Program-made: the position numbers and the translations under genes
The notes under the pieces: model-generated
Seen by the model: the letters and a program-made list of their open reading frames with translations, nothing else
What the model was told of the DNA's origin: nothing
Databases searched by the model: none
Part shown: positions 62,381 to 64,000 of the stretch, piece by piece
Layout: each line of letters starts with the position of its first letter
Position numbering within the stretch: the first letter of the stretch is position 1
Assembly (NCBI RefSeq): GCF_044324785.1
Contig: NZ_CP172127.1
DNA: 64,000 bases
Strand: one strand, 5' to 3'
DNA from: Escherichia coli
Lineage (GTDB): Bacteria > Pseudomonadota > Gammaproteobacteria > Enterobacterales > Enterobacteriaceae

Positions 62381-63691
62381 CTAAATAAATTCAGCCCCAC
62401 TAGGAAAACGCAACTCTGATGTCTGTAAACTCTCGCCAATAAAGAAAGGTACAACCCATAAACGTAACCTATTTTCCTTCTGATGGCTAAATTCATAAGG
62501 ATGAGGAGATGGCTGATTAAATCCGTTATGATAGGGGTATATCAAAATCATATCACCTTCCCCCTCCTGGTAATTCAATCCATAGGCAAGCATTTGGTAG
62601 AGATCGGCTTGAGATTGTTCAAGACTGTCCTTTCTGCCATTTACTATCTTCCATTTAACATCACAGGTAATAACTGAACCAGTAGTACTTTTACGAGGCC
62701 GTAAACAAATATCAGGCCGCAGCTTAAATAAAGCTTTACCGTTATAACTAATCAGATTTTTTGAACTTACCTGTGCGTCCACTCGCCATTTATCATAATA
62801 ACGATAACGCATCCATGTCGTCACAAAAGATTCAAAAACAGCCTCCATCGGGAAAAGCAGTGAAAAAGCATTAACATCCCCATACATACAGTGTGGAGAA
62901 TCGCCCAATAAAATCATCTTCGCCCACGCTAATGCTTGCTCATAGTGATGCATGTGTCTATCAAAGTGTAACTGCTCGAAAGCTATATAAGCATCATGAA
63001 CTGACGTGATATTTTCAAAGTGAAACTGCAGCTGTGTTATCTGCTGTAATAATTGTGGATTACTGGTCTGGCGACTAATCTTATTAATTGCAGTTTTGAG
63101 TATCCGGTTTTCCAGACGATTGACGCTGTACTCGTCATACTCCACCTGAAAAAGATCCCGCCTAATACAGTTTTTGCTTAATTGTGCAGAGATCCGTAAT
63201 CTTCCTTTTATCCATGGAAGATTATCTTCCTGACGTAAATAGTCACGTTTTAACCCTCTCTGCACAATCTTACGCACGCTCTCTATAAATTGTTGAATAA
63301 AGATATCCATCAGAGGCATTTTAGATATTTTGACGCCAGATTCAGAGGAGGCAATATGACGAAATGATTTTAACGTACGTAACATCATCAGTAATTGTTG
63401 ACGAACAGTATCCTCATTATCCTGACCTGTTTTAGGCAGGATTTCGAGAAATCGCCCCCCTGGCAGTGAGATTACTCCTGCATAGTTTTTTACCTGCAGC
63501 GTTTTTACTCCATTCCGGCTGCTAAGGGTGAGCAAACGATGAGTATTATCAGCATCGTCTTTCAGACAGCGCAGCTCAAGCCATTTAAATAGGTCTGCAG
63601 GTAGCACTACCGCATTATTTATACGGGCATCACCTTCTTCACTCACTAAATGCCCGTATTCGAACACAGTGAAATGACTGGAAGATTTCAT
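62381..63691 (-). CDS. McrC-like PD-(D/E)xK nuclease subunit of an McrBC-type modification-dependent restriction system
   Basis: 436 aa from ATG 63691, which overlaps the stop of the upstream McrB-like gene (ATGA); C-terminal ...LRPDICL...ITCDVKWKIV... fits PD...DxK; clearly different from K-12 McrC. Confidence 0.6.
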   Translation of the reverse strand: MKSSSHFTVFEYGHLVSEEGDARINNAVVLPADLFKWLELRCLKDDADNTHRLLTLSSRNGVKTLQVKNYAGVISLPGGRFLEILPKTGQDNEDTVRQQLLMMLRTLKSFRHIASSESGVKISKMPLMDIFIQQFIESVRKIVQRGLKRDYLRQEDNLPWIKGRLRISAQLSKNCIRRDLFQVEYDEYSVNRLENRILKTAINKISRQTSNPQLLQQITQLQFHFENITSVHDAYIAFEQLHFDRHMHHYEQALAWAKMILLGDSPHCMYGDVNAFSLLFPMEAVFESFVTTWMRYRYYDKWRVDAQVSSKNLISYNGKALFKLRPDICLRPRKSTTGSVITCDVKWKIVNGRKDSLEQSQADLYQMLAYGLNYQEGEGDMILIYPYHNGFNQPSPHPYEFSHQKENRLRLWVVPFFIGESLQTSELRFPSGAEFI

Positions 63692-64000
63692 TCCGCACTC
63701 CTGCGTTTTTCTTTTTGAGGTGCATAAATTTGCTGCCAGGCGATTGGATTGTCCCAAACGTTGTCATCCTCTGCTGCCAGGTGAAAACTGGTTCCCAAGT
63801 CATCTGTTCCGTTATCACCAAAGAGATCGGCATACTTTTTCTGGTATTTCACCTCACGTACAAATTGAAGATCTGGTGCTTCCTCTTTTTGGTTATCAGC
63901 CAGTACCATGCGAATTTTTTGCCAGTCATTGTAAAAATATTCTTCCAGCAATGGTAGTATCTTATTTCGCATAATCCGTTTGAATCTTTCAAATGCCAGA
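63688..64000 (-). CDS. C-terminal part of an McrB-like AAA+ GTPase (5-prime end beyond window)
   Basis: Minus-strand reading frame open to the window edge; C-terminal ...ILPLLEEYFYNDWQKIRMVL... resembles the McrB/MoxR C-terminal region; coupled to the McrC-like gene. Confidence 0.5.
   Translation of the reverse strand, partial: LAFERFKRIMRNKILPLLEEYFYNDWQKIRMVLADNQKEEAPDLQFVREVKYQKKYADLFGDNGTDDLGTSFHLAAEDDNVWDNPIAWQQIYAPQKEKRRSAE

What the first reader, a model, noticed from the sequence alone, without database searches (positions are those of the whole stretch)
62381..64000. McrBC-like GTPase/nuclease pair distinct from K-12 McrBC, truncated by the window edge
The minus-strand pair has an ATGA stop/start overlap. 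The downstream protein is 436 aa with a C-terminal PD...DxK motif and does not match K-12 McrC in sequence or length; the upstream frame ends with an McrB-like C-terminus. This appears to be a second, divergent McrBC-family system at a locus where K-12 has none.
Basis: partly seen in the sequence, partly recalled or inferred. Interest (0 to 1): 0.45.

Follow-up and report, generated by a model that had tools for sequence, protein, structure and literature searches.

The report
Divergent McrBC restriction system, leuX island
The window ends inside an intact two-gene McrBC-type restriction system, a GTP-driven motor plus a nuclease that cuts foreign DNA; it is only distantly related to the classic E. 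coli K-12 one, is already named in public annotation, and its DNA-recognition part is of unknown type.

Summary
On the minus strand, a 436-aa gene (62381-63691) overlaps by ATGA the 3' end of a gene cut by the window edge (63688-64000).

- **Downstream gene:** a full-length Pfam McrBC/McrC match (E 6.5e-100) with the PD...DxK catalytic residues conserved.
- **Upstream fragment:** identical to the last 103 residues of a 684-aa 'McrB family protein' found next to the same McrC in about 300 of 5426 complete E. coli genomes.
- **Full-length McrB:** it has Walker A, Walker B, the NxxD GTPase signature and the McrB lid. Its nearest solved relative is Thermococcus McrB, not K-12 McrB.
- **Location:** the pair lies in the leuX defence island ('hotspot 37'), next to a type I R-M system and two HNH enzymes. 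K-12 has unrelated cargo there.

What is not ordinary is the specificity part. No known reader domain is present. Instead there is a conserved, Pfam-less, all-helical N-terminal domain, whose weak best fold match is to Ogg2-type DNA glycosylases, plus a roughly 100-aa insertion in the AAA+ domain. The target modification is unknown.

Verdict: a new, uncharacterised member of a known kind, of modest interest.

The parts
63688..64000 (-). 3' end of the mcrB-like gene, covering residues 582-684 of a 684-aa McrB-family AAA+ GTPase. This is the end of the lid region plus a conserved C-terminal tail. The rest of the gene lies beyond the window edge.
   Evidence: The frame is open over 103 codons and ends in TGA. 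It is 100% identical to the C-terminus of the 684-aa proteins in L001, L002 and L003. The full protein matches AAA_5. It also matches TgMcrB 6ut3 at E 5.7e-52 and EcoK McrB at E 5.5e-29, with the alignment running into LPLLEEYFYNDW, which is inside the window. PF28529 McrB_lid comes from precomputed hits and maps to residues 538-684.
62381..63691 (-). mcrC-like gene, 436 aa. It combines the McrC N-terminal/core region with a C-terminal PD-(D/E)xK nuclease (D327, D344, K346).
   Evidence: Pfam PF10117 McrBC matches at E 6.5e-100, covering residues 65-386 of the protein and model positions 1-318 of 318. PDB matches are TgMcrC at E 4.7e-18 and EcoK McrC at E 3.7e-6. The catalytic residues are invariant in alignment A4. 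RefSeq annotates it as 'McrC family protein'.
63688..63691 (-). ATGA stop/start overlap between mcrB-like and mcrC-like, the arrangement expected for translational coupling within one operon.
   Evidence: Read directly from the sequence. An equivalent small overlap is annotated in E. coli, Enterobacter and Morganella homologs. K-12 mcrB and mcrC share one base.
63698..63702 (-). AGGAG Shine-Dalgarno-like sequence 6 nt upstream of the mcrC ATG, inside the end of mcrB.
   Evidence: Read directly from the sequence. Its function is inferred.

Best explanation
This is an intact, horizontally acquired McrBC-family (type IV, NTP-dependent) restriction system in the leuX defence island. What follows is inferred from the solved E. 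coli and T. gammatolerans complexes, not tested here.

**Proposed mechanism.**
1. The 684-aa McrB-like protein forms a GTP-bound AAA+ hexamer.
2. The 436-aa McrC-like protein inserts into the ring, stimulates GTP hydrolysis and carries the PD-(D/E)xK nuclease.
3. Target-bound complexes translocate DNA and cut both strands of invading DNA.

**What differs from K-12 McrBC.** The target-recognition module is different. The MrcB_N 5mC-flipping domain is replaced by two elements:
- a conserved all-helical N-terminal domain of about 200 aa that has no Pfam family;
- a discrete insertion of about 100 aa in the AAA+ domain.

The DNA feature it recognises is therefore unknown. It is probably some base or backbone modification, and probably not the K-12 R-5mC rule.

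**Shown:** gene structure, family membership, catalytic and NTPase motifs, distribution and genomic context.
**Inferred:** hexamer assembly, GTP use, modification dependence and the target.
For: **Family membership and motifs.**
- McrC: PF10117 matches full length at E 6.5e-100. D327, D344 and K346 align with the K-12 McrC nuclease motif.
- McrB: AAA_5 and NCBIfam McrB at E 1.7e-32. It is closest to TgMcrB at E 5.7e-52, with about 60% identity across Walker B and sensor.
- Walker A, Walker B, NxxD and RRRF are all present and invariant across 30 homologs.
- The NxxD motif is the McrB GTPase signature (PMC11090510).

**Operon and conservation.**
- ATGA coupling and a Shine-Dalgarno sequence are present.
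- The B-C pair is conserved in Enterobacter, Morganella, Aeromonas, Vibrio and Thalassotalea.
- In 3 of those 5 genera it lies directly downstream of a type I R-M operon. In Vibrio the order is hsdRMS-mcrBC-yjiT-yjiV, as in the K-12 ICR.
- It is intact and at least 99% identical in 284-308 complete E. coli genomes, always chromosomal.

**Signs of horizontal acquisition and defence context.**
- GC is about 40-41%, and the pair sits in the leuX island.
- That island is the documented defence 'hotspot 37' (PMC12707154).
Against: - No experiment on this subfamily was found in the searchable literature.
- No recognised modified-base reader is present.
- The N-terminal domain is acidic (pI 5.5, family median 5.8). 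That is unusual for a DNA-binding module.
- The same helical domain persists in homologs that carry an additional EVE or other N-terminal domain.
- Most of mcrB lies outside the window. Its integrity in this particular strain is inferred from relatives, and one relative carries a Walker A G240D change.
- PADLOC-DB v2 models do not recognise this McrC at all.
Confidence: 0.85

Rival explanations
1. The system works together with the adjacent phosphorothioate-sensing HNH enzymes as one PT-directed defence module. In this reading the McrBC-like motor is recruited to PT-modified DNA.
For: In E. coli, mcrC is convergent with and 62 bp from an SBD-HNH gene that matches NF045808 'phosphorothioated DNA-binding restriction endonuclease' (E 2.6e-131). 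A second HNH gene with a ScoMcrA head domain follows. This four-gene arrangement recurs in every E. coli locus inspected.
Against: - The HNH genes are absent next to the homologous McrBC pairs in Enterobacter, Morganella, Aeromonas, Vibrio and Thalassotalea.
- They lie on separate, convergent or divergent transcription units.
- EcoWI-type SBD-HNH enzymes restrict PT-DNA on their own (PMC7461809).
- The second HNH gene is truncated in many strains while mcrBC stays intact.
Confidence: 0.07
2. The pair is a decaying or inactive remnant of a defence island with no current function.
For: - The island is mosaic, with IS elements and truncated neighbours (HNH, nanS, DUF4942) in several strains.
- Some genomes hold only 11-85% of mcrB.
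- One strain has Walker A G240D.
Against: - Both reading frames are intact in the window, as far as it is visible, and in at least 284 genomes.
- All catalytic and NTPase motifs are conserved across genera down to about 40% identity.
- Only 1-3 amino-acid differences separate the McrB alleles of the three strains compared.
Confidence: 0.05
3. It is an McrBC-derived system that does not read DNA modification at all. It could be a sequence- or structure-directed or abortive-infection-type NTPase-nuclease, or RNA-targeting like the CoCoNuTs.
For: No known modification reader is present, and the N-terminal domain is acidic. The McrBC census shows that branches of the family have diverged to other predicted targets (PMC11090510).
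Against: - It has the canonical NxxD motif, not the NxD motif that defines the CoCoNuT branch, and no coiled-coil fusion.
- McrC retains an intact PD-(D/E)xK DNA nuclease motif, and there is no HEPN or other RNase.
- Some homologs in the same family carry an EVE modified-base reader.
- The context with type I R-M mirrors that of K-12 McrBC.
Confidence: 0.1

Closest known systems
Thermococcus gammatolerans McrBC (PDB 6ut3-6ut8)
   Same: - It is the closest solved relative of both subunits: McrB E 5.7e-52 and McrC E 4.7e-18.
- It has the same AAA+ motifs, including NxxD.
- Its McrC is of similar length (458 aa against 436 aa) and has the same PD-(D/E)xK region.
   Different: - TgMcrB uses an N-terminal domain described in the literature as a YTH-like m6A reader. 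That attribution is from my own knowledge, not a tool result.
- Here the N-terminus is an unrelated all-helical domain, and the AAA+ domain carries extra segments at residues 247-282 and 332-435.
- One host is an archaeon, the other an enterobacterium.
E. coli K-12 EcoKMcrBC (mcrB b4346 / mcrC b4345)
   Same: - The same two-gene operon, with mcrB upstream of mcrC and abutting coding regions.
- The same Pfam families for the motor (AAA_5) and for McrC (PF10117).
- The same catalytic residues.
- Homologs show the same association with type I R-M and yjiT/yjiV.
   Different: - McrC is only 22% identical. McrB is about 34% identical, and only within the AAA+ domain.
- Both proteins fall far below the NCBIfam equivalog cut-offs.
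- There is no MrcB_N domain.
- McrB is 684 aa against 459 aa, and McrC is 436 aa against 348 aa.
- The chromosomal site is different: the leuX island rather than the ICR.
- This system is in about 310 of 5426 complete genomes, and the K-12 type is in 597.
McrBC census branches with the NxxD motif and type I R-M association (Bell et al. 2024, PMC11090510)
   Same: It has the NxxD signature, an insertion inside the GTPase domain, and unidirectional linkage to type I R-M in homologs.
   Different: That paper does not describe this subfamily's N-terminal helical domain or its insertion. A text search for glycosylase or HhH found nothing. Its placement in their tree was not tested here.

Membership tests
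McrB (AAA+ GTPase subunit of McrBC) | AAA+ (AAA_5-type) NTPase domain homologous to McrB | tested here: met
   AAA_5 at E 1e-11. NCBIfam McrB model at E 1.7e-32. TgMcrB at E 5.7e-52 and EcoK McrB at E 5.5e-29. Tested on the full-length protein from near-identical genomes. The window itself holds only residues 582-684, which are 100% identical.
McrB (AAA+ GTPase subunit of McrBC) | Walker A, Walker B and the NxxD GTPase signature motif | tested here: met
   GPPGTGKT at 235-242, VLIIDE at 447-452 and MNTAD at 504-508. All are invariant in 30 homologs. They lie outside the window, so for this strain they are inferred. One strain (L001) has G240D.
McrB (AAA+ GTPase subunit of McrBC) | McrB lid domain (Pfam PF28529) | tested here: met
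   Precomputed Pfam hits on the identical protein P0011 and on homologs. The domain was mapped to residues 538-684 by comparing truncated homologs. The model is absent from the local Pfam copy, so it was not rescored.
EcoKMcrB orthologue (NCBIfam NF008457 equivalog) | Score at or above the curated cut-off (637 bits), and an MrcB_N 5mC-binding N-terminal domain | tested here: not met
   Score is 112.8 bits against a cut-off of 637. There is no MrcB_N hit, whereas K-12 McrB does hit it.
McrC (nuclease subunit of McrBC) | Pfam PF10117 McrBC family domain | tested here: met
   334.6 bits against a cut-off of 23.9, covering model positions 1-318 of 318. K-12 McrC scores 96.3 bits on the same model.
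McrC (nuclease subunit of McrBC) | PD-(D/E)xK catalytic residues | tested here: met
   D327, D344 and K346 are invariant with the K-12 McrC TDI...VDAK motif.
EcoKMcrC orthologue (NCBIfam NF007277 equivalog) | Score at or above the curated cut-off (338 bits) | tested here: not met
   107.6 bits.
McrBC system | mcrB immediately upstream of mcrC in one operon | tested here: met
   ATGA overlap. The same order is seen in 5 other genera.
McrBC system | GTP-dependent cleavage of modified DNA; McrC-stimulated GTPase | not testable with these tools
   Needs biochemistry or restriction assays.
CoCoNuT / NxD-branch McrBC | NxD signature, coiled-coil fusions, HEPN or tandem nucleases | tested here: not met
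   The motif is NTAD (NxxD). The N-terminal domain is a compact 9-helix globule, not a long coiled coil. No extra nuclease domain is present in McrC. Criteria are taken from PMC11090510.
HhH-GPD DNA glycosylase superfamily (for the McrB N-terminal domain) | HhH-GPD fold with an HhH motif and a catalytic Asp (plus Lys in bifunctional enzymes) | tested here: inconclusive
   - The AF2 model is confident (pLDDT 93.9).
- The Foldseek top hits are also Ogg2 (3knt, 3fhf), but they are not significant: E 0.19-0.37, TM 0.27-0.37.
- There is no sequence-level hit to Pfam or PDB.
- No Asp or Lys is invariant. The invariant residues are W26, W53, R122, W162 and N187.

The most novel reading that the evidence does not exclude
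The conserved N-terminal domain of this McrB subfamily may be a catalytically dead relative of Ogg2/HhH-GPD DNA glycosylases. It would have been recruited as a base-flipping reader, possibly acting together with the AAA+ insertion. In that case this widespread gammaproteobacterial McrBC variant would recognise a modified or damaged base outside the 5mC/5hmC/6mA repertoire of the characterised McrBC systems. A glycosylase-derived sensor feeding an AAA+ nuclease motor would be a previously undescribed reader class for type IV restriction.
Probability: 0.15. Interest if true: 0.6.

Novelty: new member of a known kind. Interest (0 to 1): 0.27.

Why it matters
E. coli strains differ in which modified DNAs they reject, and this affects phage host range, plasmid uptake and the cloning of modified DNA.

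- **Carriage.** This McrBC variant is carried by about 6% of complete E. coli genomes, including the EPEC reference strain E2348/69. It is also found in many Enterobacter, Morganella, Vibrio and Aeromonas genomes.
- **Gap in knowledge.** Its target is unknown, and PADLOC-DB v2 models do not recognise its McrC.
- **What defining the specificity would give.** It would fill a gap in the restriction map of pathogenic E. coli. It could also add a new modification-dependent enzyme to the toolbox.
- **Caveat.** The finding does not reveal a new principle. The family, its mechanism and the island are all known.

Tried and rejected
1. **Exact source genome.** I looked for it in order to read past position 64000. 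The best complete genomes are only 98.7% identical over 58500-64000, although the mcrBC part is 99.8% identical. The full mcrB therefore had to be taken from relatives.
2. **Sequence searches for the N-terminal domain.** Pfam at a permissive threshold on 40 members, a profile against all PDB sequences and Pfam on the extra N-termini of longer homologs found nothing recognisable.
4. **Word-indexed homolog search with the N-terminal domain alone.** It returned only fragments. The exhaustive representative search was needed.
5. **PADLOC.** There was no hit for McrC and only weak 'REase_II' hits for McrB.
6. **Functional coupling to the PT-dependent HNH neighbours.** I considered this and rejected it because the adjacency is not conserved outside E. 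coli.
7. **Literature searches for an experimental study of this system.** Nothing relevant was found.
8. **Walker A 'GPPGTDKT'.** It was first seen in L001 and looked like a family-wide inactivation. It proved to be a single-strain G240D change.

Full report
**1. The observation**

On the minus strand, an ORF runs from the ATG at 63691 to the TAG at 62381 and encodes 436 aa. The mechanical ORF list extends it to a TTG at 63757 (458 aa). The ATG has an AGGAG six bases upstream and is the start used in RefSeq.

The frame upstream is open from the window edge to a TGA at 63688-63690, so the two genes share ATGA. The protein contains P326-D327 ... D344-V-K346.

**2. What the two genes are**

The 436-aa protein matches Pfam PF10117 ('McrBC 5-methylcytosine restriction system component', the McrC family) over the entire model (E 6.5e-100, 334.6 bits). 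K-12 McrC itself scores only 96 bits on that model. Among solved structures it is closest to T. gammatolerans McrC (E 4.7e-18), then to E. coli McrC (E 3.7e-6). Against K-12 McrC it is 22% identical over 278 residues. D327, D344 and K346 line up with the K-12 nuclease motif and are invariant in homologs from Enterobacter and Morganella.

The 103 residues of the upstream frame are identical to the C-terminus of a 684-aa 'McrB family protein' that precedes the same McrC in E. coli genomes. That full-length protein has these features:
- an AAA_5 domain;
- Walker A GPPGTGKT, Walker B VLIIDE, MNTAD and RRRF, where MNTAD is the NxxD GTPase signature described in PMC11090510;
- the McrB_lid domain PF28529.

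Its best solved relative is TgMcrB (E 5.7e-52), followed by EcoK McrB (E 5.5e-29). Both proteins are far below the NCBIfam equivalog cut-offs for EcoK McrB and McrC. They are family members, not orthologues of the K-12 enzymes.

**3. Where it sits**

In complete E. coli genomes the order of genes at this locus is as follows:

1. leuX tRNA
2. hsdR-hsdS-hsdM (type I), with an integrase and other cargo before them in some strains
3. DUF4942
4. mcrB-like, then mcrC-like
5. SBD-HNH (convergent)
6. HNH
7. nanS-nanM-nanC-fim

K-12 has about 40 kb of unrelated KpLE2 cargo in that interval and no McrBC-family gene. The leuX region is the documented E. coli defence 'hotspot 37' (PMC12707154). The mcrBC segment has about 40-41% GC.

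The system is found in 308-315 of 5426 complete genomes, always on the chromosome and at least 99% identical in nearly all. It is full length in 284. K-12-type mcrBC is in 597 genomes.

The window also contains the K-12 mcrBC site, the yjiA-yjiS immigration control region. There it carries Fic, GmrSD and a type I system, and no K-12-type mcrBC. In the visible part of this genome the leuX-island pair is therefore the only McrBC-family system, not a 'second' one.

**4. The family beyond E. coli**

Full-length homologs with 40-80% identity occur in Zymobacter, Enterobacter, Leclercia, Kluyvera, Morganella, Vibrio, Photobacterium, Aeromonas, Thalassotalea and others. The McrB-McrC pair is the conserved unit:
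- It stands alone in Enterobacter and Thalassotalea.
- It follows a type I R-M operon on the same strand in Morganella, Aeromonas and Vibrio.
- In Vibrio neonatus it is followed by yjiT and yjiV homologs, the same neighbours as K-12 mcrBC.

The PT-sensing HNH genes accompany it only in E. coli, so they are independent neighbours in a defence island.

**5. The unusual part: specificity**

The McrB-like protein lacks MrcB_N, EVE, YTH, SRA and any other Pfam reader. Its domain layout is:

| Residues | Element | Evidence |
|---|---|---|
| 1 to ~200 | Conserved N-terminal domain; invariant W26, W53, R122, W162, N187 | |
| 201-226 | Acidic linker | |
| 227 to ~620 | AAA+ core | |
| 332-435 | Discrete insertion within the core; absent from two otherwise close homologs | |
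| 538-684 | Lid and C-terminal tail | |

An exhaustive search found the N-terminal domain in 127 representative clusters. Every long hit that was scanned was an McrB-like ATPase, and the domain always lies just before the AAA+ module. In some it follows another unassigned N-terminal region. In others an EVE domain sits between it and the AAA+ module.

AlphaFold2 gives a confident nine-helix globular model (pLDDT 93.9, pTM 0.90). The fold searches on it gave the following:
- Foldseek independently ranks M. jannaschii Ogg first, but without significance (E 0.19-0.37, TM 0.27-0.37).
- There is no sequence-level support.
- No Asp or Lys is invariant.
- The domain is acidic (pI 5.5).

I treat 'glycosylase-like reader' as a lead, not a result.

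The insertion folds as a small alpha/beta unit (pLDDT 75). It has no informative structural or sequence match and a mildly basic pI. Bell et al. noted that insertions in McrB GTPase domains are frequent and 'likely encode specificity domains'.

**6. Mechanism**

This is the best-supported reading, by homology with the solved EcoK and Tg complexes:

1. McrB assembles as a GTP-dependent hexamer.
2. McrC activates the GTPase.
3. The complex translocates DNA.
4. The McrC PD-(D/E)xK site cleaves both strands.

All sequence requirements for this are met. The steps themselves, and the modification dependence, are inferred. The target is unknown.

**7. Rivals**

- **Joint action with the PT-sensing HNH enzymes.** This is unlikely because the adjacency is E. 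coli-specific.
- **Decayed remnant.** This is unlikely given the intact frames and motif conservation, although individual strains do carry lesions: G240D in CFSAN061769 and truncations.
- **A non-modification or RNA-targeting derivative.** This is unlikely because the motif is NxxD, there are no coiled coils or RNases, and some homologs carry EVE readers.

**8. Novelty and score**

The pair is already annotated as McrB/McrC family by PGAP. It lies in a known defence hotspot and belongs to a family whose diversity has been surveyed. It is an uncharacterised subfamily with an unassigned recognition module. I rate it a new member of a known kind, with interest of about 0.27. The upside is limited to the possibility that its reader is a new class.

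Noticed in passing
window 61389-62318 (+); RefSeq start gives 290 aa: The gene convergent with mcrC encodes an SBD-HNH 'phosphorothioated DNA-binding restriction endonuclease' (NCBIfam NF045808, E 2.6e-131). Its SBD matches ScoMcrA (5zmo, E 6e-7). It has the architecture, and the annotated 290-aa size, of the characterised PT-dependent enzyme EcoWI (PMC7461809). Identity to EcoWI itself could not be checked.
   Followed up: partly
window 60659-61309 (-): A 216-aa protein combines a ScoMcrA 'head' domain (5zmm residues 29-93, E 2.9e-5) with an HNH nuclease. It gives weak hits to PADLOC type IV methyl-directed REase models. It is intact in the window and in strain 144, shortened at the N-terminus in E2348/69 (546 nt), and reduced to a 105-nt remnant in strains CFSAN061769 and 26561.
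   Followed up: partly
L001:13259-15313 (NZ_CP042969.1, strain CFSAN061769), McrB residue 240: This strain's McrB-like allele has Walker A GPPGTDKT (G240D) instead of GPPGTGKT. It is a single-strain change in an invariant P-loop glycine and is likely to abolish nucleotide binding.
   Followed up: partly
window ~5850-19000 (yjiA to yjiR): The classic immigration control region is inside the same window. It holds a Fic-family gene (6325-7059), an intact GmrSD/DUF262 gene (7103-9202, 699 aa) and a type I R-M operon (hsdM 9478-11832, hsdS 11832-13115, hsdR 13112-16375). No K-12-type mcrBC, symE or mrr was detected (tblastn and blastn; annotation of a 99.4% identical genome).
   Followed up: partly
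window 59671-60651 (+): nanS is full length in the window (326 aa, as in K-12) and ends 8 bp from the HNH gene. In four island-bearing genomes inspected, nanS is a truncated pseudogene. The island/nanS junction therefore differs between strains.
   Followed up: no
window 62320-62375: An 11-bp inverted repeat (GTAGGCTATCT ... AGATAGCCTAC) with a loop of about 34 nt fills the 62-bp gap between the convergent mcrC and SBD-HNH genes. It may be a bidirectional terminator. The simple terminator scan did not pick it up.
   Followed up: no
L012:303-16106 (Vibrio neonatus contig): The gene order hsdR-hsdM-hsdS-mcrB-mcrC-yjiT-yjiV runs on one strand. It has the same neighbours as the K-12 immigration control region, but with this divergent McrBC subfamily in the slot.
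   Followed up: no
window 62381-63691 (protein level): PADLOC-DB v2.0.0 has no model that matches this McrC (0 families at E<=0.01). It matches the McrB only weakly, as 'REase_II'. Defence-system annotation based on that library may therefore miss this system.
   Followed up: no
L004:11066-11899; the equivalent gene lies beyond the window edge: A DUF4942 gene (PF13708, E 3e-68) sits between hsdM and mcrB on the mcrBC strand, about 360 bp upstream of mcrB. It is truncated in strain 26561 and separated from mcrB by an IS3 in CFSAN061769. Its role is unknown.
   Followed up: no
window 58500-64000 against complete E. coli genomes: The best complete genomes are 99.8% identical over mcrBC (62300-64000) but only 98.7% over 58500-64000. 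The nanM-nanS-HNH side of the island is therefore more divergent than the mcrBC side in this strain. No complete genome in the collection is the source.
   Followed up: no
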